From assembly GCA_964016885.1 (NCBI GenBank), contig OZ024742.1:155248001-155312000 (forward strand): 64,000 bases of DNA, written 5' to 3'. Below are positions 1,334 to 38,500 of the stretch, in pieces. The position numbers and the translations under genes are program-made. The stretch comes from Eledone cirrhosa. Its lineage: Eukaryota. The notes under the pieces were generated by a model that made no database searches, was not told the DNA's origin, and saw nothing but the letters and a program-made list of their open reading frames with translations. Numbering within the stretch: position 1 is the first letter of the stretch; each line of letters begins with the position of its first letter.

Positions 1334-2650
1334 CTAATGGATACTATTTAAACTACCAGAACTTTTAGGTCTATAATAGAAGAAAGAATTAGAAATGGCA
1401 TGGGGGCAGGAAGAAAATATCTCAGACTTTCTATTAAGCAAAACTTCCCTTGAGAAAATTATAGAGTGGCTCTCTAGGGTACATAGATTACAGAATGTAG
1501 TGTGTGTTGATAGGTTATTAGAGCGTGCTACTATATGCCTATTAAGGCTATATGGCATACCAGCCCCTTTAAGATCCCAGATATGCTGTGCTAAAGAAGT
1601 AGAGTTCTTAAACTTAACATGTTTAAAATTAGAGATATGAGAATTAAACCTAGTTTTAAAAGTATTAGATGTGGAGCCTATATATGTGCTACTAGAAGAA
1701 TTAGTCTTAACTTCACAAACATAAACAATGTTCCTAGAGAGGCAGTGACCATTTAAAGGGCAGTTAATACTTACTCTAGAGTTACAATTCCGGGTGCTAT
1801 TGACCGGCTGAATGAGTGAGCATTACTCCTAGGGTTATTATAAGATAAGGTCTGCTCAGATGGTAAGGCATTAATGGATCCATCAATACTAGTAGTACGC
1901 AAAGAGGAGTAGCTGTCCCTAATTTTCCTATTGTTAGTGCTAGCTAAATGAGAACTAATATTAGGGTGGTAGAGAATGATAGTTTAATTACATTTTTATT
2001 ATAAATACCATGGTATTTATTAGAAGAAGGGAATTGTTTGTCTAAGATAGAAAAGAAAGAACTAGGGATGTTAGTTAATACTTCATGATCATAAGGCGGG
2101 TTAAAATAAGTATTGAGTCTCCTCCTATTTCTATCTTACGAACTCTACCGTTATCCAGTATTCCACTAATAGGATCAGGGTAACTACGAGGACTAGTTGA
2201 AACAACATTATTAGAAGCAGCCAAAACCCTATTGAGTCTACTTCTGTTTCTACCTTTAGTATATCTACTGTTATCTGGAATCATATCAATAGGATTAGGG
2301 TTACTACCAGTATCAATTGAAACAACACTATTAGAATTAGTAAAAACATTACCACTGGGTGAGCGATCAGAGTGCCTAACTTGTTCCCTAGAACTAATCC
2401 CGAAACGTATACCATTAGACTCACTATTACGATTACGGTAGCTTAACCTATGGATGGGTTCGGATACACCTATGGGATTTCTACGATTCTTATGCTTTCT
2501 ACTCCCATTCATGGCCATATTATGGGATATTATGTTATTATTATTATGAGTAAACGGAGACTTTCTAAGTTTGGTCTCATTATAACGTATTTTACCAGAG
2601 TAACCAGAGTTAGCTAGGGCATTATTATAGTATTCCGTATTTTCTTAATA
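1334..2650 (-). mobile_element. 5'-truncated, frameshifted Penelope-like element (Hydra-clade-like): RT thumb end, low-complexity linker, GIY-YIG endonuclease
   Basis: Manual minus-strand translation gives [12 protein letters not shown], then RRRLNTYFNPPY..LDKQFP..YHGIYNKNVIKLSFS, then CPLNGHCLSRNIVY..YIGSTSNTFKTRFNSH..LAQHIWDLK..CNLCTLE..LLNRKSEIFSSCPH. These motifs are collinear with the elements at 10111 and 35588. Confidence 0.85.
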
Positions 2651-3075: not shown

Positions 3076-3691
3076 TTATAATTAATACAATAACAGAGAT
3101 AGCTTAACGCTAAACTTCGACTGGTAACCATCTCACTCAACAAACATTAGGTTATATGTTAGTATAACCCAATTTAAGAGTTTGGGTGCTAACAATATGC
3201 ATTTCGTGGAAAGCCAGTTGTATTATTTTATGAGATATAATTAAATTTAAAATGTGTCTCTCTTTCCAAACAATTGTTTCATTATAAGTTTTCTACAAGT
3301 TGGGAGAATGTTTCCAATTCATGTAGAAGCCTAACATATATTCATGTAAGAATATATTTAGGTGGGCACTTATAAATCTTTAGTGGAAGCCCATTAAACT
3401 TTGAAATAAGTAAAAATTATTACCGCAGTTACAAATCGTGTCCGCTAAGCTGCTCCTTCTCGCATCGAATGAGCGCCAAATTTGAAATTCCAGCAGTCTT
3501 TTGACTGAGGAAGTTTCATAGCGTCACAATGCGGGAAGGGGAGACAACTACAACACGAGAAAAGAGAAAAAAAATATACACTCAGGTTAATTAGTTTTTT
3601 AAAAAACATTATTAATCCAACGTGTTAAGAACTCAATTGAAATAAAAAAAATAAATATATGCGTCTATTAATTACACACTCATACAGATAC

Positions 3692-3730
<39 letters not shown>

Positions 3731-3733
<3 letters not shown>

Positions 3734-5315
3734 CGGCGATGAATTAGTTTTGCGAGGTTTTTTATATGAAATCGTGTGTCGAAACAGATATTGTTATATT
3801 TGGGGAGGGTCATATTTGCGTAATATTGCCAGAATTAATAACAGAACACACTCACTGTTTGGTTGGTTTTCGCTTCTCGCTGTCTTTTATATATATATAT
3901 CTGCGATCTAGCTTACTCGGTCCTCAATGTTGCCATTGACTGACCGGCGGTCAAAAATAATACAGATACAATATAGACAAACACATATATATATAGTTTA
4001 CATAAATCTTTCGTTGCACATCTGCAACATCGTCAGTGGTGTTATATTCATTGTTCCTCCTGTTGTGTTGTATGTCTACGCCATTTTTTTTGTTCAGTCT
4101 GTCTATATATTTATTTATTTATTTGCTTGTTTGTTTATCTTATTTTATTTTGTCTTCTTTGCGCATGCGTTTGCGTGTGTGTATAGTGTTATGTGTGATG
4201 TGTGATGTGTGACTAGTGTGTATAGTGTTGTCTGCTGGGTGACTAGTGTGTGTTTATGTGCTTGTGTATGTATTTATTTATCTTATTTTATTTAATTTAA
4301 TTTACTTATTTATTTATACTTCTCTTAGGTCAGTGTTGTTTGTTTGGGTGTTGTTGTTGTTCCACTCATTCTTTCTGTTTAGCTTTGGTCTTCTAATTTC
4401 TATTTCACTGGCCTCTCTGATTTGCCTATCTGCTGGGTCATTCCTATGTTTAGATATTATTCTAATTTCTATGTTGTCTATGTTACCGTCATGATGTTGT
4501 CTAGCATGTTCGTATAGTACTGACCCGTTTTTTCGTCCTTTTAGTTCCCCCCAGTGTTGGTCTATCCTTTCACCTATGCTACGAGCTGTCTCACCTATGT
4601 ATGTTGTTGTCGTGTTTCTGCAAGTACCCTCTGTACATCTTATGCTATAGACTACGTTTCTAGTTTTACAGTTTATCCGGGGGTTCACCTTACATATGAT
4701 ACATTTCCTATTGGTACAGTGGGTTTTCTTAAAAGGGTAGGTTTTGCTGATCAGGGATTTTATGGTGGTTCCTGGCTTTTCTACCACCTTTATTTTTAAG
4801 TGGGTCTTTCTCAGGGCCTTTCTACACTGGTTAGCTAATTTCCCTCCAGGGGTGGCGTCCACAAACATGACACTCTGATATCTCTGGTTGTCGTACCATG
4901 ATGTGGCCTTCCCTATCTTATGTCTAGCCCTATCTAAGCTATTCCATGATTTGCTCCTGTATAGTGGGCAAATTCCTTTCATGTCCAGTTCTATGAGGGT
5001 CTTATACTTTTCCATGGCTCCTTCGTATACTCTGACTCTGTCTCTTTGGTTGTAGCCAGAGAACTGCATGCGGTTGATGAAGTGTTGGATGTGTCCTTCC
5101 ATTTCTGTTGGGTCGCACATGCTGGACACATTCTTCATCACTCGTACCAAATCTGCGATCAGAATATTAAACTTAGCACTACTGGACATTGCTGAGTTTT
5201 TGAGTATCAGGTATTTGGAGGCCATGGGTTTAGCATAGTGTGAGTGGAGAATTTGGGCTCTCTCGTCTATAGTGTTAATCCAGAGTTCTGTGTCTAATAC
5301 AGGTAGTCTATTGTT
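3731..5315 (-). repeat. Inverted copy of the PLE 3' part (equivalent to 8558-10059 plus 84 nt of ORF start)
   Basis: ORF 4314-5225(-) is identical to the last 303 aa of the main ORF; ORF 3625-3813(-) starts [28 protein letters not shown] and then enters (TA)n. Confidence 0.97.
4000..4040 (-). ncRNA. Hammerhead ribozyme-like core (copy in inverted arm)
   Basis: Reverse complement of the 5703-5743 motif. Confidence 0.6.
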
Positions 5316-5323
5316 GGCTACAT

Positions 5324-5955
5324 AGAGAGGCCAGTGAAATAGAAATTAGAAGAACAAAGCTAAACAGAAAGAATGAGTGGAACAACAACAACACCCAAAC
5401 AAACAACACTGACCTAAGAGAAGTATAAATAAATAAGTAAATTAAATAAAATAAAATAAGATAAATAAATACATACACAAGCACATAAACACACACTAGT
5501 CACCCAGCAGACAACACTATACACACTAGTCACACATCACACATCACACATAACACTATACACACACGCAAACGCATGCGCAAAGAAGACAAAATAAAAT
5601 AAGATAAACAAACAAGCAAATAAATAAATAAATATATAGACAGACTGAACAAAAAAAAATGGCGTAGACATACAACACAACAGGAGGAACAATGAATATA
5701 ACACCACTGACGATGTTGCAGATGTGCAACGAAAGATTTATGTAAACTATATATATATGTGTTTGTCTATATTGTATCTGTATTATTTTTGACCGCCGGT
5801 CAGTCAATGGCAACATTGAGGACCGAGTAAGCTAGATCGCAGATATATATATATAAAAGACAGCGAGAAGCGAAAACCAACCAAACAGTGAGTGTGTTCT
5901 GTTATTAATTCTGGCAATATTACGCAAATATGACCCTCCCCAAATATAACAATAT
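5324..5955 (+). repeat. 5' pseudo-LTR of the PLE (begins inside the EN C-terminus, overlaps the ORF start)
   Basis: Matches 9455-10085 with about 3 visible differences in ~606 nt. Confidence 0.95.
5703..5743 (+). ncRNA. Minimal hammerhead ribozyme-like core in 5' pLTR
   Basis: CTGACGA-T-GTTGCA(GATG)TGCAAC-GAAA-GATT-TA. Stem II is perfect and stem I is short or imperfect. Minimal hammerheads are established features of PLE pLTRs. Confidence 0.65.
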
Positions 5956-8900
5956 CTGTTTCGACACACGATTTCATATAAAAAACCTCGCAAAACTAAT
6001 TCATCGCCGCTATGGCATTAGCTTGTGCCAAGCTGAAAGGTTATTGAAAGACACTGTTTTCTGTTATATAAAAACTACAATAACAACAGAACAAATCCGC
6101 TTCTTAAAACACTGTGTTTCCTCCAAAACATACACAACAAACATATCAAAACAAGTAAATAATTTATTATTGAACAAAACACAAGCTGAACGGCTAAAAC
6201 ACACAATAACAGTTAATATGAAAAGAACAACATACACAAAAGTCAACGCACTCTACAGACAAAAACGCATCAACGGTAAGGAAATCCGAAATCTCATCAC
6301 AGCAAACGAGAGAGATGACTTCATGAGCGTCATCCGACGCGAAACGAAATATGCTCAAAACGAATGCTGTAGGCATTTCAAGAAGAAATTAGAATGGATG
6401 AATAAGAAAAAACTACAAGAAAGGAAAATCGAATATTCTCAAAAATACCCAGATAACATCGACAACATCCGTATGAGTGATGTAAAACTACCGGAAGAAT
6501 TTACCAATGACCACACAGTAAATATCTATGGGAACACTTTAATCAGTGAACAAGAACAACAAATCCTAAAGTTACCACCAAAATTTGCCATCTACAAAAA
6601 AATTAATCCTATGGAATGCAAAACGGAGCTGGAAAAGTGTTTCACAAAAATACGTTGGAATGCAAAGGTAAACAACAACAACAATAATAACGGTAGTAGT
6701 AATATAAACAATAACTCTGGGTATAGAAATAACAGCCATAACCATAACAATGGCAGGAAAGTGAGAAATAGTGATAATGGTAATAATACTAGCGATAGAC
6801 AGAACAACAACAACCACAATAATAATAATAATAGAAACGTTAACCACAGACACAGCAACAGTGACCACAGTAGTAATAACGGTAACAATACGAACAACAA
6901 CAACAACAATAACCACAGTGGTAATAATGGAAATAGTACATGTAGCAACATCAACAAAAACAAGAAACATAATAATAGTAACAACCACAATGGTAGAAAT
7001 AGCAGTAACAACAACAATAACGGTGAAGTAAACAACAATACATCTAGCAATCATAACAATAATAATATTAATGCTAAGGATAGAAACAACAACAACCACC
7101 ATGATAACAATAATAGCAACACACACAACTATGACGATAGAAATAACGACAACCCCTTAGAGAAACTATTTTTCAACCCAGCTGACAAAACATATAAGAT
7201 GGGTAATATCTATCCTACGAGGTTACCCTTTAATAAAAGAGTTTGCATACCACAACAAATAGATGACGAGACGGAGGCACAGTTCACCATAGCTAGAAAT
7301 AAGATTAGACAAGTAGTAGACAGGTACACTATGAGACAGAGCAGACCAGAGGCCCAACAACTTGGGATAAAACCTGTAGAAGGCTTGGTTAGCCTCAAGC
7401 AGCGCACAAGGGATGGTGAGGTAGTGTGTCTACCCACAGATAAGTCTGGTAGGATGTCAATAGATAGCATGCCGAACTACATCGAGGCAATGCAACCCCA
7501 CATCACCAACACGAGCGAAGTTGCACAACTAACACACGATGGGAGAGAAAAAATCCTCAACGCTCACATGATGATGTGGACTGACATCCTAAAGCCAAGC
7601 AGACGCACTGCCAACAACTTCCAGGCGTCTAACAATGGCATACCACCCTTGTATGGGCTCCGCAAAGACCACAAGACAGTCGACGACCCGACAATAGGAC
7701 CACCAACAAGACCTGTATGCGGAGCTAATATAGCTAGCAACTACAGGATCTCCTACTTCCTCTCAATGGTTATGCGCCCCATAATCAAGATGTCCCCAGA
7801 TGTATGTGAAAGTACAGAGGACCTCCTCAGCAGAATCAGTGAGTGCAACAAAAACAGGAGCCTATCCAACTGCATAATAGGCAGCATGGATGTGGTGTCA
7901 CTGTACCCATCCATTAACATTGATTTTGCTGTGAAAAGATGTGTGGAGATGATCATTGAGAGTGAGGTGGAGTTCTGCGACGTCGACACAGACGAACTGG
8001 GCCTCCTACTTAGACTTACCTACGACACTGACTACCTAGACAGCCATGACCTTAGATGTTTCTGCCCTAGTAGACCTATAAGAGGTAGACCCCCCACCAT
8101 AACCTCAATGGCTAAAAAGACTCCCATAGGAAGGTGGATTGGGTGGACCAAAGCTATACGGACCCCCCAAAACACTGATCAGGTAAGAAAAATGGTCGCA
8201 CATGCAATAGGGGCTAGTATCAAAACTACCCTAAAGGGCCACATATTTAAGTTCAATGAGAAAATCTACACCCAAAATGAGGGAGCAGCCATCGGCGTCA
8301 GCATAGCTGGCGATGTTGCCAACCTTTTCATGGTATGGTGGGAAAGGAGACTTAAAGATCTCCTTAATGAAAGCTCCATAGACCTCATCATGTACTCTCG
8401 TTATGTAGACGATATCAATATAGTTATAAGAACATCCCCACTAGACAGCACTAACAAGTTTGATTTAGAACGTAGCACGATGGAAAGCATCCAGCAGATA
8501 GCTAATTCCATACACCAGAGTATAACTGTAACTATAGACTTCCCTTCCAAACACCCTAACAATAGACTACCTGTATTAGACACAGAACTCTGGATTAACA
8601 CTATAGACGAGAGAGCCCAAATTCCCCACTCACACTATGCTAAACCCATGGCCTCCAAATACCTGATACTCAAAAACTCAGCAATGTCCAGTAGTGCTAA
8701 GTTTAATATTCTGATCGCAGATTTGGTACGAGTGATGAAGAATGTGTCCAGCATGTGCGACCCAACAGAAATGGAAGGACACATCCAACACTTCATCAAC
8801 CGCATGCAGTTCTCTGGCTACAACCAAAGAGACAGAGTCAGAGTATACGAAGGAGCCATGGAAAAGTATAAGACCCTCATAGAACTGGACATGAAAGGAA

Positions 8901-9559
8901 TTTGCCCACTATACAGGAGCAAATCATGGAATAGCTTAGATAGGGCTAGACATAAGATAGGGAAGGCCACATCATGGTACGACAACCAGAGATATCAGAG
9001 TGTCATGTTTGTGGACGCCACCCCTGGAGGGAAATTAGCTAACCAGTGTAGAAAGGCCCTGAGAAAGACCCACTTAAAAATAAAGGTGGTAGAAAAGCCA
9101 GGAACCACCATAAAATCCCTGATCAGCAAAACCTACCCTTTTAAGAAAACCCACTGTACCAATAGGAAATGTATCATATGTAAGGTGAACCCCCGGATAA
9201 ACTGTAAAACTAGAAACGTAGTCTATAGCATAAGATGTACAGAGGGTACTTGCAGAAACACGACAACAACATACATAGGTGAGACAGCTCGTAGCATAGG
9301 TGAAAGGATAGACCAACACTGGGGGGAACTAAAAGGACGAAAAAACGGGTCAGTACTATACGAACATGCTAGACAACATCATGACGGTAACATAGACAAC
9401 ATAGAAATTAGAATAATATCTAAACATAGGAATGACCCAGCAGATAGGCAAATCAGAGAGGCCAGTGAAATAGAAATTAGAAGACCAAAGCTAAACAGAA
9501 AGAATGAGTGGAACAACAACAACACCCAAACAAACAACACTGACCTAAGAGAAGTATAA
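5930..9559 (+). CDS. PLE polyprotein: N-terminal basic region, Asn-rich insert, reverse transcriptase, Cys-rich linker, GIY-YIG endonuclease (1209 aa)
   Basis: PTDKSGR, LYGLRKDHK..RPVC, GSMDVVSLYPSI (motif A), QNEGAAIG (B'), RYVDD (C), LPVLD, YAKPMAS, CxxxxCxxC, VVYSIRC..YIGETAR..RIDQH..HARQHH..REASEI..LNRKNEW; no internal stops. Confidence 0.96.
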   Translation: MTLPKYNNICFDTRFHIKNLAKLIHRRYGISLCQAERLLKDTVFCYIKTTITTEQIRFLKHCVSSKTYTTNISKQVNNLLLNKTQAERLKHTITVNMKRTTYTKVNALYRQKRINGKEIRNLITANERDDFMSVIRRETKYAQNECCRHFKKKLEWMNKKKLQERKIEYSQKYPDNIDNIRMSDVKLPEEFTNDHTVNIYGNTLISEQEQQILKLPPKFAIYKKINPMECKTELEKCFTKIRWNAKVNNNNNNNGSSNINNNSGYRNNSHNHNNGRKVRNSDNGNNTSDRQNNNNHNNNNNRNVNHRHSNSDHSSNNGNNTNNNNNNNHSGNNGNSTCSNINKNKKHNNSNNHNGRNSSNNNNNGEVNNNTSSNHNNNNINAKDRNNNNHHDNNNSNTHNYDDRNNDNPLEKLFFNPADKTYKMGNIYPTRLPFNKRVCIPQQIDDETEAQFTIARNKIRQVVDRYTMRQSRPEAQQLGIKPVEGLVSLKQRTRDGEVVCLPTDKSGRMSIDSMPNYIEAMQPHITNTSEVAQLTHDGREKILNAHMMMWTDILKPSRRTANNFQASNNGIPPLYGLRKDHKTVDDPTIGPPTRPVCGANIASNYRISYFLSMVMRPIIKMSPDVCESTEDLLSRISECNKNRSLSNCIIGSMDVVSLYPSINIDFAVKRCVEMIIESEVEFCDVDTDELGLLLRLTYDTDYLDSHDLRCFCPSRPIRGRPPTITSMAKKTPIGRWIGWTKAIRTPQNTDQVRKMVAHAIGASIKTTLKGHIFKFNEKIYTQNEGAAIGVSIAGDVANLFMVWWERRLKDLLNESSIDLIMYSRYVDDINIVIRTSPLDSTNKFDLERSTMESIQQIANSIHQSITVTIDFPSKHPNNRLPVLDTELWINTIDERAQIPHSHYAKPMASKYLILKNSAMSSSAKFNILIADLVRVMKNVSSMCDPTEMEGHIQHFINRMQFSGYNQRDRVRVYEGAMEKYKTLIELDMKGICPLYRSKSWNSLDRARHKIGKATSWYDNQRYQSVMFVDATPGGKLANQCRKALRKTHLKIKVVEKPGTTIKSLISKTYPFKKTHCTNRKCIICKVNPRINCKTRNVVYSIRCTEGTCRNTTTTYIGETARSIGERIDQHWGELKGRKNGSVLYEHARQHHDGNIDNIEIRIISKHRNDPADRQIREASEIEIRRPKLNRKNEWNNNNTQTNNTDLREV

Positions 9560-10077
9560 ATAAATAAGTAAATTAAATTAAATAAAATAAGATAAATAAA
9601 TACATACACAAGCACATAAACACACACTAGTCACCCAGCAGACAACACTATACACACTAGTCACACATCACACATCACACATAACACTATACACACACGC
9701 AAACGCATGCGCAAAGAAGACAAAATAAAATAAGATAAACAAACAAGCAAATAAATAAATAAATATATAGACAGACTGAACAAAAAAAATGGCGTAGACA
9801 TACAACACAACAGGAGGAACAATGAATATAACACCACTGACGATGTTGCAGATGTGCAACGAAAGATTTATGTAAACTATATATATATGTGTTTGTCTAT
9901 ATTGTATCTGTATTATTTTTGACCGCCGGTCAGTCAATGGCAACATTGAGGACCGAGTAAGCTAGATCGCAGATATATATATATAAAAGACAGCGAGAAG
10001 CGAAAACCAACCAAACAGTGAGTGTGTTCTGTTATTAATTCTGGCAATATTACGCAAATATGACCCTCCCCAAATAT

Positions 10078-10085
<8 letters not shown>
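9455..10085 (+). repeat. 3' pseudo-LTR with 26-nt tail repeating the ORF start
   Basis: Direct repeat of 5324-5955; ATGACCCTCCCCAAATATAACAATAT at 10060-10085 merges into (AT)n. Confidence 0.95.
9833..9873 (+). ncRNA. Minimal hammerhead ribozyme-like core in 3' pLTR
   Basis: Same as 5703-5743. Confidence 0.65.
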
Positions 10086-12820
<2,735 letters not shown>

Positions 12821-16757: not shown

Positions 16758-17356
<599 letters not shown>

Positions 17357-17357
17357 A

Positions 17358-18222
<865 letters not shown>

Positions 18223-18225
18223 ATA

Positions 18226-18324
<99 letters not shown>

Positions 18325-31520: not shown

Positions 31521-32869
31521 TCAATGCCATACGTCTCTATTCGTGGTGTTAGTTATTTTTGTGGTGGTGATGGTGGAGGCGGTGGAGTGTTGTTTTGGTA
31601 GTGTTGTAGTTGTTGGTATGGGCAACATCGGTGTTTTTTTGTTTGCTTGGGAACAGACAGCCCTCAGGTGACCTCTGCCACCACAGAGGTAACAAGCGGG
31701 TCGTTTGCCCTGCACTGTGATGTGTAAGTAGGGAAGCCCATCCAGCAATATGCGGTCGGGGATCCCAGCGTTTCGTTCTGGCAGCATTTGCACCAGAACT
31801 TGCAGGCTAGTTCCACCCAACACGTTGCTGGAAGACTTACCTACTGAAATTACTGCATCATCTTTCAAGTCGAAGAGGCCACACAGTACCACCCATAAAT
31901 CAATATCTGGATAGATACTGTGTATGGTCAATCTTTGCGTCTTTTGCCCACATAAGTGAGGAAGAAGGTAAATAAGGGGGACACAATTGGGGCCAGGGCA
32001 TGTTTTTCGGCCGTCAATTTATCTTTCATTCGGATGGAGAGACTTCCGAATGAATACAATGTTTTTCAGATGATCTTTTAAAGCCAGTTCAATCTCTGTC
32101 TGTGTGAGTTGTACTGGCTTACGGGTTTTGTTGGAGATTGTCCTATAAATAATAGTTTTTAAGCTATTTTCCTTTTTTAGCTCAGGGGCAGAATTTAAAG
32201 AAAATAGACCATTCTCCTCCAAAGTTATGTACTTCCGTGCATTTCCCATTTGCTGGGCCATGTTCGAAATGTCAATAGGTTCATACACAATGTTTTTTTG
32301 GTAGTTTGAGCGAACGTCATTTCGTTCGTCCCCTCTTAGTTTACATTTGTCGAAATGTGGTTGTTATCTTGTTTTTTGTTGTTACAATTTTCATTTTTTG
32401 TTGTGTTTGTGTTATTTATGTTGGTTATGCGTTCACATTTGTTTTCCCCTGTTGGGGTTAGTCTCCATTTTTTCAAAATGTTCACTTATATTTTCAGTAT
32501 CCGAGTGACTTGTAGTCACAGCTACGACTTCTCTCTCAACTTTGGTGTTGGGCGTGGCACCGTGAAAAGTCGAAACGGCATCCATTAATGTTGTCAATTT
32601 TTCCGAGTCAATTTTTTTTCACATTTTTTTCATTAGGGTTAGGCTCCATTTTTTTCAATGTTTCTAATAATCATTATTCTTTCAGTAGGGTGGCTTGTTG
32701 CCTCCGCTACCCGCGATCCTTCAGTTTGTTTAGTGGGCGTGTCATCGTTGCCTGTGGTAATGGCTTCCATTACCACTAACGTAGTGACAATCTCAAGATT
32801 TTTAGGATGAAAAATTTCACCCAAAAAGGGGTGAAATAAATTAACCATAATGTCTGAAGACCCAGGCAA
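31521..32869 (-). pseudogene. Fragmented gag-like ORF1 of a non-LTR retrotransposon (Tx1/L1-like) with CCHC zinc knuckle
   Basis: LHITVQGKRPACYLCGGRGHLRAVC (CX2CX4HX4C) in ORF 31521-31931; collinear same-strand ORF pieces at 32019-32288 and 32639-32869. Confidence 0.6.
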
Positions 32870-35593: not shown

Positions 35594-38500
35594 TCAGGTT
35601 ATCAATAATGTAGTGATAATATATCGTTACGTTAGAGATGAACAGCGTACGTGCAGGTTTGCTCAACGAGTATAAATTATATTCCGGAGAAATGTAGAAA
35701 GGATGAATATAAAATGAAAGTGCTTTTGTTAAAAAAGGAATTTATTAGGTGTTGACATATGTTTCTGTAACAGACCGAATACCTATGTATCGCTGCTTGC
35801 GTAATCATATAATGTTAGCAAGTATTCGATAGCAAATGTATAATCAGTTGTCACTTCTTCAGAGATTTTGGATAAACTGGATAAAATCAGAATAATTGAA
35901 GTATTTATATTAGTAAAAGAGGAAGGAACAGAGGGGACAGTATATGACAGATGGTAAAATAATTTACTGCTAGACAAGTATATAATGGGTTTTTAATGAG
36001 AATACCATGAGTAAATCTAAATAAGAATTTTGGGAGTGCCAATTTTAATCTCTACTTGACCAACTGGACAGTGGACAGGGCTGGTCATTTGGTGCAGTAG
36101 TATTAATTATAAAGTGTCAATTGGGGATGGGGAGATTTCGATTGCTACTAAATAACATCAATGCTAGTAGCCAGCTGGTATATGCATTAGGGAATTGAAT
36201 CAAGAAATCAGAAATCTCATTTTATCTATAGCCGTTTGTATTAAAAGGTAAATAATAGAAGAGTTGATAGAATTAAGACTAATACAGAATGTTCATATCT
36301 ATTTTGACAATCAAACGGGGATAGAGACAGGCGTTCAATCCTGGTAGTATTTATAATATGAAAATGTAGATTTTAAGCGATGGTTACAGTATAACGATCG
36401 CTCTATTCTGTTATTTAATAAAATGTTTTTGGATTTCATAATACAAAATAATTCTACATTACATAATTTACAAAATTCCTGTCCATTGGATTATGGGGGG
36501 GGGGCAGTCGCTATTATATCCCATTTTAGGTGAAATTGTTGGTTATTTTCACGCAGCTGCCAAGCCTTGTCTGCCAGTGTTGTTACATAACGCTGGTTTT
36601 CATGTTTTATCGAATAACGATGTCTATAAAGGAGTGATTTGAAGGAGGTGGCTGTAGATCCCACATAGTACCACTTCTGTCTATCCGATTCGATAGTACA
36701 TTTGTATACGATGTTGCGTTCAAGACACTGATTGTTCAACGGACACATTCCTGGTTGGACACAGTTGCAATTATAATTTTGCGTTGTTGTATTGCCATGG
36801 ATGGGTTGATGAGGTTGCTTATGTAGGACAGGATGTTGTTTGTTGTTTTGTGATGTTATAGCTAATGTTTTACGTGTATAGTTATGTGCTGGAAGGCGTT
36901 TATACAACCGTTTTGCGTTAAACTTTTTTATATGTTGTTCAATATTAGGGGCGGTTGAATATGAAAGTCGAATAGTGTTAGGGTTTAAGATTTTATTATA
37001 TTTATGTGATGTTGGAAAGTGTTTTCTAACTAATCGAAAGAATTTTGAGGGTAGATTGGTTTTAATAGAGTTGTTATAGACCGGGTTGTACCAGATATAC
37101 TCCTTACATCGCCTTCTGTTTGGTGGTGTGCGACTATAATTGTGTCTATTGCGGTAGTGTATGTATGGTGGTGATTATGTGCTATTTCTACTCCTATGTG
37201 ATTTATTTTGGGTGTTTTGGTGATCTTTGACTATATACTCTATATTATCTAGGTGACCGGCTTTCCTAAGTGCATCATCATAATACTCGGCATGTTCTTT
37301 GAAGGTTTGTTGGTTGGACGATAGGCGGGAGATCCTAAGAGAAACATTTCTAGGGATGGATTTAATTATAGAGAGTGGAAGGTTAGAACTCGTATTTACA
37401 TATTTAAGGTTCTCATTTAGTTTATGGAACGGTTTAATCGTATCTGTATTGAGATTGAAAGTAACATCAAGGAAATTGACCTCTTTGAGGTTATATTCAA
37501 ATGTAATATTTAATCCTAGTTCCTTAAAAAGCTTTCTGATATTTTTACGCATCCTTTCTAAATTCTGGTTATTCATATGCTTAACTAATAGGAGCGCATC
37601 GTCACGGTAAATTCCACCGTGGAGATCCTTGAATTTTCCTTGTAATCTGTGGGTGATATAAATTCCCACAAGATCTGTTACTTCCGCCGAATCATTAGAA
37701 CCCATAGTGATATCAAAATTAGAAGGTCTATCTTTGCGAACCCAGTAGCTATCATCGAATTTAACTATAGTTTTTCTCGCTTCCATAATAATTTTAATTT
37801 CAGCATCCGTAAGGTCGGAATTATCCTTAGCGAACGAAAGAGCTTCATGTAGAGTATCAGGTGAAATTGAGGAATAATATTCATCAATATCAAACTGAAT
37901 AAATTTCGATTTTTTCTTATCAGTAATGTTATTAAACCATCTTATTGCTTCATGAGTGTTACCCCATAGTTTAATCTCTACTTTAACCTTAACTTGGGGG
38001 ATAATTCTGTCTAGTATATATTTGCTAATTTTACCTATATCAGATTTAGAGGGGCATATAAGTCTAATATTAGGGTTAGTATCGAAGTTTACCTTGTGGT
38101 CCTTCAGGTTGAAGGATGGTATAGCTGGTGTTAAGGGTTGCGTTCTATCGTCAATACAAAGTTTTTTAACAATATCACATGCCGAGTTGTTGATGTTTTT
38201 AAGTGTGGCTTCATTAGTTTTCCTGTATTTATAATTAATACTACTGCACCAAATGACCAGCCCTGTCCACTGTCCAGTTGGTCAAGTAGAGATTAAAATT
38301 GGCACTCCCAAAATTCTTATTTAGATTTACTCATGGTATTCTCATTAAAAATCTATTATATACTTGTCTAGCAGTAAATTATTTTACCATCTGTCATATA
38401 CTATCCCCTCTGTTCCTTCCTCTTTTACTAATATAAATACTTCAATTTTTCTGATTTTATCCAGTTTATCCAGAATCTCTGAAAAAGTGACAACTGATTA

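What the first reader, a model, noticed from the sequence alone, without database searches (positions are those of the whole stretch)
3731..10085. Intact, probably still active (TA)n-targeting Penelope-like element
Seen: uninterrupted 1209-aa ORF with all RT catalytic and GIY-YIG motifs; pLTRs differ at only about 3 of ~606 positions; the inverted arm encodes an identical 303-aa C-terminus. At least three decayed copies (25866, 27156, 39179) and a sister family (16866) lie in the same 64 kb, all ending in TA runs. Established: PLE pLTR and inverted structures and microsatellite bias are known in general. Inference: a recent insertion from a long-lived, high-copy family, and a good candidate for biochemistry. 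I cannot assign the clade by eye (C-terminal EN ending LNRKNEW; possibly Nematis-like).
Basis: partly seen in the sequence, partly recalled or inferred. Interest (0 to 1): 0.75.

Follow-up and report, generated by a model that had tools for sequence, protein, structure and literature searches.

The report
Penelope retroelement with telomerase-sized fingers insert
This is a complete-looking copy of a very young jumping gene with thousands of copies in TA repeats of an octopus-like genome, and its copying enzyme carries an extra, conserved 70-residue piece where telomerase has one, which likely marks a branch of these elements that we did not find named.

Summary
Observation confirmed. A 1209-aa RT/GIY-YIG Penelope-like element (PLE) with pLTRs, an inverted arm and a hammerhead core sits in (TA)n. 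The family is very young: 25 of the 30 best copies are identical over 2.3 kb, and about 4,000 3' ends join TA.

Ends fall at +26, +69 and +84 from the ATG; the site with the longest TA match is rarely used (25 copies). 19 of 20 fetched inverted loci pair a short end with a long one. Earlier scan notes describe this one-tail footprint in this genome.

New here: the RT has about 70 extra conserved residues between motifs A and B', the position and size of the telomerase IFD, with a C-terminal endonuclease. All 58 measurable relatives share it; the published C-terminal-endonuclease clades lack it. The lineage is one clade (100/100), sister to Nematis-like surrogates (99/98); a Neptune grouping is rejected. 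The insert does not superpose on TERT's IFD.

Correction: this copy carries four amino-acid changes from its family, one a proline at an always-hydrophobic site, so it is not the best biochemical candidate. Expression and insertion polymorphism are not shown.

The parts
3688..3732 (.). (TA)n target tract, left flank
   Evidence: sequence
3733..5315 (-). Inverted, 5'-truncated arm (copy of 8558 to the 3' end, with the long tail ending at +84 from the ATG); carries the family allele at the 8625-equivalent site
5316..5323 (.). 8-nt filler at the head-to-head junction, not found elsewhere in the element
5324..5951 (+). Upstream pLTR (partial tandem copy of 9455-10081; 3 differences in 628 columns); includes the ORF start
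5707..5740 (+). Minimal type I hammerhead core (CUGACGA, one unpaired U, 6-bp stem II, GAAA, UA); helix I weak; cut predicted after 5740. Copies at 9837-9870 and on the minus strand at 4036-4003
   Evidence: descriptor from PMC4209133; not found by Rfam
5930..9559 (+). Single ORF, 1209 aa: N-terminal region, RT, thumb, Zn-finger-like linker, GIY-YIG endonuclease
5955..6013 (+). Stretch holding the three preferred 3'-end (inferred cDNA start) positions of the family: +26 (5955), +69 (5998), +84 (6013)
6674..7159 (+). Asn-rich in-frame insert (80 of 162 residues Asn) between the LPPKF..RW motif and the DKS region
8039..8245 (+). About 70 extra conserved residues between RT motifs A and B' (IFD position); borders from the break in the alignment with a Nematis-like protein, exact placement uncertain within aa 678-772
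8624..8626 (+). Codon 899: Pro in this copy, Leu in 32 of 32 other aligned family segments and L/M/I/V in 56 of 56 relatives
9155..9514 (+). CX4CxxC linker (short, Nematis-type spacing) and GIY-YIG endonuclease with CCHH
9455..10085 (+). 3' pLTR, ending at +26 with ATAT shared with the target
10086..10110 (.). (TA)n target tract, right flank

Best explanation
This is a complete-looking copy of a very young, high-copy Penelope-like retrotransposon that inserts into existing (TA)n tracts, and it likely belongs to an unnamed branch next to Nematis whose reverse transcriptase carries a conserved 70-residue insert at the position of the telomerase IFD. Shown: anatomy, copy numbers, TA junctions, three fixed end positions, the short-plus-long pairing of ends, the insert and its conservation. 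Inferred mechanism: (1) an RNA longer than one 4.13-kb unit is made from a tandem or pLTR-bearing copy; (2) the protein binds it just downstream of the start codon; (3) the GIY-YIG domain nicks both strands of a TA tract about 9-13 nt apart (one visible target duplication, L175); (4) each 3' end primes cDNA inside the RNA, one at +26 and the other at +69 to +85, at positions set by the protein-RNA complex and usually falling on a 2-4 nt TA match; (5) the two cDNAs stop at different points and are joined head to head by microhomology or a short filler. Here one arm ran through a whole unit and 628 nt into the next, rebuilding the ORF start. The insert would most likely help hold primer and template, as the IFD does in telomerase, but it was probably gained independently; this is untested.
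For: Copy number and age: 4,522 exact matches of the 26-mer at the ATG, old subfamilies included; 252 read on past +84; 25 of 30 best copies identical over 2,301 nt; 16 of 16 loci holding the ATG and 3.6 kb have an open 1209-1211 aa frame (loci were chosen as best hits). End positions: +26 1,948, +69 913, +84 1,144, against 25 at +51, the site with the longest TA match. Pairing: 11 short+long, 2 long+long, 0 short+short of 13 classifiable; 19 of 20 fetched loci short+long. Junctions in 19 loci: 11 overlap by 1-10 nt, 2 blunt, 6 with filler. Target pre-exists: a 9-nt duplication in L175, and flank lengths fit length-biased choice of TA tracts (p 0.15-0.20). Insert: A-to-B' spacing 125-137 in 58 of 58 measurable relatives among 75, against 51-66 (one 84) in the Neptune/Poseidon/EN-minus set and 61 in the Nematis-like family of this genome; A-to-C 167-203 in 50 of 50 measurable among 147 representatives at 50% identity. 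It is conserved about as well as the RT core and folds confidently (pLDDT 92). Tree: lineage 100/100 with the insert columns dropped, sister to Nematis-like rows 99/98; grouping with Neptune rejected (AU p 0.020 and 0.009). Internal initiation at two sites and cutting of both strands were shown in vitro for another PLE (PMC11167929).
Against: No named reference sequence is in the tree: clade labels come from motif matches to figures in PMC8557442, Nematis is represented by two families, and Naiad, Chlamys, Athena and TERT are absent. Lineage plus Hydra is not rejected (AU p 0.30). The insert does not superpose on the TERT IFD: human TERT aligns 106-108 of 196 residues at 2.5-2.8 A, and longer alignments mostly reach 8-13 A. 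The anole element starts cDNA at sites without homology to the target, whereas most ends here share 2-4 nt with TA; one end in L175 does not. The pairing counts come from one 81-Mb stretch, and 11 of the 20 fetched loci were already known to be short+long. This copy may be impaired by Pro899. Repbase and Dfam could not be checked.
Confidence: 0.72

Rival explanations
1. It is an ordinary member of Nematis (a marine subclade nested inside it) and the fingers insert is a dispensable lineage mark.
For: Sister to Nematis-like rows at 99/98; short linker spacing like Nematis in Fig. S2; sporadic IFD-like regions are reported in Coprina and lost in some Naiads.
Against: Printed Nematis sequences have A-to-B' 63, DK[RG]G and YKTHK; this lineage has 131, DKSG and RKDHK, a stem of 1.0 changes per site, and keeps the insert in all 58 measurable members at core-like conservation.
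Confidence: 0.3
2. The fingers insert is inherited from the common ancestor with telomerase, so this branch keeps a true IFD.
For: Same position and size: the 196-residue segment spans 183 residues in human, 191 in Candida and 170 in yeast TERT but 117 in Tribolium TERT and 129 in LINE-1; TERTs top both fold searches.
Against: No low-rmsd superposition of the insert (best 131 aligned at 4.8 A, Z 7.2); the model is helices and loops; the nearest relatives lack it, which needs several losses.
Confidence: 0.1
3. The 3' ends are set only by microhomology between the RNA and the nicked TA strand.
For: All three main sites end in ATAT, TA or TAT.
Against: The 5-nt match at +51 is used 25 times against 913-1,948 for sites with 2-4 nt; ends pair short with long far more than chance; one L175 end has no TA match.
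Confidence: 0.08
4. The family is no longer active, and this copy is a dead relic of a finished burst.
For: This copy has four amino-acid changes, two not shared by any other aligned segment. No polymorphism was shown.
Against: 301 of 435 pairs among the 30 best copies differ at no site in 2,301 nt; tandem arrays with open frames exist.
Confidence: 0.15

Closest known systems
Nematis clade of C-terminal EN+ PLEs (PMC8557442: passages, sections 11, 12, 15, Figs S1, S2, S7 as text)
   Same: C-terminal GIY-YIG with CCHH, short CX2-5CxxC linker, 'HL/HI' after the DK motif, extended loop after HK; nearest neighbour in the tree (surrogates).
   Different: About 70 extra residues between motifs A and B' (131 against 63), DKSG instead of DK[RG]G, RKDHK instead of YKTHK, longer thumb-to-linker region, long stem.
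Naiad/Chlamys PLEs (PMC8557442)
   Same: Insert at the IFD position; (TA)n preference (Naiad, including octopus families); pLTR, inverted arm and tail.
   Different: Their endonuclease is N-terminal with a CxC domain and they are reported to lack canonical hammerheads; Naiad's insert is about 20 aa. Here the endonuclease is C-terminal and a hammerhead core is present.
Hydra clade (PMC8557442, section 11)
   Same: C-terminal endonuclease, KDHK, RW motif, modified DKG, (TA)n insertion, hammerheads.
   Different: Hydra is stated to have no IFD, no CCHH, a CxCX5C linker and elements under 3 kb; this one has the insert, CCHH, CX4CxxC and a 4.13-kb unit.
PAc, Poseidon element of Anolis (PMC11167929, parts 1-2 of 4)
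   Same: cDNA starts inside the RNA just downstream of the ORF start at adjacent sites that define the 'tail'; AT-rich target; hammerhead in the pLTR.
   Different: PAc starts 111-118 nt into the ORF without target homology; here three sites at +26/+69/+84, mostly on 2-4 nt TA matches, used in a short-plus-long pair.
Asn-rich Penelope elements of Adineta vaga (PMC3846280, passages)
   Same: Long in-frame Asn-rich insert that leaves the ORF open.
   Different: There 460-554 aa with 25-30% Asn, between RT and thumb or RT and endonuclease; here 162 aa with 49% Asn, upstream of the RT, shared only with the Octopus vulgaris relative among 17 aligned.

Membership tests
EN+ Penelope-like element | Single ORF with TERT-related RT and GIY-YIG endonuclease | tested here: met
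   (TERT top hits, Z 13-14.5); GIY-YIG Pfam hit in relative P0047
EN+ Penelope-like element | pLTRs from partial tandems, inverted truncated arm, tail on one end | tested here: met
EN+ Penelope-like element (C-terminal EN clades) | Hammerhead motif in the pLTR | tested here: met
   Core at 5707-5740; core in the 3' region of 8 of 30 relatives, 0 of 30 and 0 of 25 in controls. Cleavage untested; helix I weak
Nematis | C-terminal EN with CCHH and short CX2-5CxxC linker | tested here: met
Nematis | No insert between RT motifs A and B' (canonical spacing about 60) | tested here: not met
   131 against 63
Nematis | Falls inside the Nematis RT clade | tested here: inconclusive
   Sister to two surrogate families at 99/98; named Nematis sequences not available to the tools
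Neptune | Falls with Neptune RTs; DKG motif; long linker | tested here: not met
   AU p 0.020 and 0.009 with surrogates; DKS and short linker
Hydra | CxCX5C linker, no CCHH, no IFD | tested here: not met
   CX4CxxC, CCHH and insert present; grouping of the RTs is not rejected (p 0.30)
Naiad/Chlamys | N-terminal endonuclease and CxC domain | tested here: not met
   Endonuclease follows the RT in the ORF
Penelope/Poseidon | No Cys-rich linker between RT and EN | tested here: not met
   Linker present
TERT-type IFD | Insert folds like the telomerase IFD | tested here: inconclusive
   Position and size match; no low-rmsd overlap of the insert; predicted model only
Currently active element | Transcripts or insertion polymorphism | tested here: inconclusive

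The most novel reading that the evidence does not exclude
An undescribed ninth PLE clade, spread across hundreds of aquatic-animal families, that joins a C-terminal GIY-YIG endonuclease to an RT with a telomerase-sized fingers insert acting as a primer-template clamp. Its thousands of fresh octopod insertions record an asymmetric twin-priming reaction in which one RNA start site serves each strand of the cut.
Probability: 0.4. Interest if true: 0.68.

Novelty: new variant of a known kind. Interest (0 to 1): 0.52.

Why it matters
The IFD is cited as a link between PLEs and telomerase and is stated to be absent from C-terminal-endonuclease PLEs (PMC8557442). A large lineage that has both changes that picture and offers a natural comparison (insert-bearing against insert-free sister) for what a fingers insert does in an RT that also cuts DNA. 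The family also supplies about 4,000 junctions at three positions and a short-plus-long pairing rule, which give exact predictions for an in vitro test of how PLEs make tails and inverted arms, a question that paper lists as open.

Tried and rejected
Rfam found no hammerhead; the core was found by a hand descriptor. Pfam missed the whole ORF. A PDB sequence search gave only weak bacterial RT hits. The protein atlas gave no result for this protein or a relative, so host taxa of most relatives remain unknown; only Octopus vulgaris is named. A degenerate pattern for Naiad found nothing in this genome, so no Naiad row is in the tree. No RNA holder listed. Horizontal transfer: runs of several coded organisms hold near-identical pieces, but at low depth (6-33 in X1), and X1 also holds an unrelated repeat of this genome at depth 11. 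Carry-over or close kin explains this, so no claim is made. The polymorphism test at L175 failed because its flank is a high-copy repeat. The idea that the element synthesises the long TA tracts was not supported by tract lengths (p 0.15-0.20; flanks capped at about 1.2 kb; background includes PLE-flanked tracts). The first tree was a quick search with insert columns kept and two rows dropped for lacking the motif; searches left out 16 and 22 further rows (long branches or near-duplicates). Literature searches for such a lineage and searches of the PMC8557442 supplement for its motifs found none; long cells there are cut at 400 characters, bioRxiv supplements are closed, and Repbase, Dfam and Arkhipova 2006 were not seen. 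PMC2678813, PMC10294476, PMC8967140 and PMC13282606 (passages) do not treat PLE clades at this level.
Full report
Observation. The locus reads (TA)n, an inverted arm (5315-3733), an 8-nt filler, an upstream pLTR (5324-5951), a 1209-aa ORF (5930-9559), a 3' pLTR ending at 10085, and (TA)n. The pLTRs differ at 3 of 628 columns, and the inverted arm differs from the main copy at 1 of 1525 nt. The host genome has 3.0 Gb and the best named relative is an Octopus vulgaris protein at 68%; an octopod host is my inference.

Family size and age. All 40 scored candidates of 3,039 were full-length matches reported at 100% identity over 2,301 nt. Among the 30 fetched, 25 are identical there and 301 of 435 pairs differ at no site; these are best hits, so they show the youngest layer only. 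Exact counts: 4,522 for the 26-mer at the ATG (it includes older subfamilies) and 252 reading on past +84 into the ORF. All 16 fetched loci that hold the ATG and 3.6 kb have an open frame of 1209-1211 aa. The window's copy differs from the majority at four residues (615, 836, 839, 899). At 899 it has Pro where 56 of 56 relatives have L, M, I or V, in a predicted strand, so it may be impaired (inference).

Target. All 30 free 3' ends in the first 30 loci and the window abut TA. A strict rule passes 65 of 75 distinct ends, and most misses are TA runs with an early variant. Background is 7.7% of positions in 20 stretches of 10 kb. The tract pre-exists: L175 shows a 9-nt target duplication at the edge of a TA run, and flank lengths fit length-biased choice. 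Raw reads of another sample show the same junction (465 reads).

End positions. Junctions with TA number 1,948 at +26, 913 at +69 and 1,144 at +84, but 25 at +51, which has the longest TA match. Position therefore matters more than homology. In head-to-head loci of the first 81 Mb of C1, 11 of 13 classifiable pairs were short+long, 2 long+long, none short+short. Of 20 such loci fetched, 19 had one +26 end and one +67 to +85 end; of 19 junctions, 11 overlap by 1-10 nt, 2 are blunt and 6 have filler. The one-sided tail is known (PMC8557442 Fig. 2 legend), and internal initiation at two sites with cutting of both strands was shown for the anole element (PMC11167929, parts 1-2 of 4). Earlier scan notes describe the same footprint and a twin-priming reading. 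I read the data as two primings, one per nicked strand, from different RNA sites, followed by end joining. This step is inferred.

Ribozyme. Rfam found none. A hand descriptor finds an intact core with one unpaired base before a 6-bp stem II at 5707 and 9837, as in the minimal PLE hammerheads of PMC4209133 (part 1 of 4). It is unchanged in 49 of 49 copies in young loci. The core lies downstream of the ORF in 8 of 30 relatives from metagenome contigs and in 0 of 30 and 0 of 25 controls. Helix I is weak here and clean in the sister family at 17107.

Protein. The AlphaFold model (pLDDT 88.6) matches TERTs best (Z 14.5, rmsd 6.5, 380 aligned). The endonuclease is C-terminal, has CCHH and a short CX4CxxC linker. 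An Asn-rich stretch of 162 aa lies upstream of the RT, is shared only with the O. vulgaris relative among 17 aligned, and recalls the bdelloid inserts of PMC3846280 (passages).

The fingers insert. From the motif A Asp to the motif B' Gly there are 131 residues. The 58 measurable of 75 relatives give 125-137; the other 17 did not match my motif pattern. The set found with a Neptune-like query gives 51-66, with one 84. Among 147 new representatives at 50% identity, 50 were measurable and all have the long spacing. Counting by hand in Fig. S1 of PMC8557442 gives Penelope 61, Nematis 63, Neptune 60, Naiad-Amil 84, two Chlamys 105 and 122, human TERT 118. BLAST against a Nematis-like protein breaks cleanly across aa 704-772. 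The insert is conserved like the core (mean top-residue share 0.49 against 0.53-0.55) and folds confidently. The segment spans a TERT-like length, but the insert does not overlay the TERT IFD at low rmsd, so independent gain is more likely. That paper states that canonical C-terminal-EN PLEs and Hydra lack an IFD, and a 2026 preprint still lists eight clades (10.64898/2026.07.22.740005, part 1 of 5 and passages).

Placement. Named references could not be used, so I took surrogates whose motifs match the printed alignments: L031 and others for Neptune, P0264 and others for Hydra, P0252 and the genome's own L208 family for Nematis. With columns under 70% filled dropped, the lineage is one clade (100/100, stem 1.0) and sister to the Nematis-like rows (99/98). 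Grouping with Neptune is rejected; grouping with Hydra is not (p 0.30). Naiad, Chlamys, Athena, TERT and nematode Nematis are missing, so nesting inside Nematis is open.

Novelty. Eight literature searches, two supplement searches and the scan's notes showed no description of this insert-bearing lineage; Repbase, Dfam and subscription papers were not seen. The layout, TA bias, tail and hammerhead are known kinds. Verdict: new variant of a known kind, interest 0.52.

Noticed in passing
window 36491-38281 (-), 1334-1822 (-), about 10400-10810 (+): Broken Hydra-clade PLE copies (KDHK, CxCX5C linker, 35-45% identity to 21 relatives); the first is split by a frameshift near 37175.
   Followed up: partly
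window 16866-17355: Sister family as a 490-nt head-to-head insert: same ORF start and +26 end, unrelated pLTR body, hammerhead with a clean 5-bp helix I at 17107; it abuts a 1.7-kb TA tract. The longest background tract (2,230 nt, L190) lies between two ends of this family.
   Followed up: partly
L167, L172, L173, L174, L178: TA tracts up to 1.2 kb or more on both sides of young inserts repeat one variant base every 10-22 nt, the same unit on both sides. The period is near the one visible target duplication; whether insertion expands such units needs empty alleles.
   Followed up: partly
L208-L220 (G000): An 887-aa open PLE family with Nematis-like motifs and no fingers insert; a natural control for the insert.
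   Followed up: partly
L031-L060 (G000): A Neptune-type family closely matching Neptune1_Ap as printed in PMC8557442 Fig. S7.
   Followed up: partly
P0072: An Octopus vulgaris gene model named dynein regulatory complex subunit 6-like contains a piece 73% identical to this element; probably an annotation chimera or an exonised fragment.
   Followed up: no
window 17554-18228 (-) and 31521-32018 (-): Fragments that look like the end of a LINE ORF2 and a zinc-knuckle ORF1 (weak zf-CCHC hit); labels by eye.
   Followed up: no
G000:C1:14385725-14394044 and C1:181302499-181308525: Tandem and inverted arrays of full units at about 4.0-4.15 kb spacing; candidates for source loci of multi-unit RNA.
   Followed up: no
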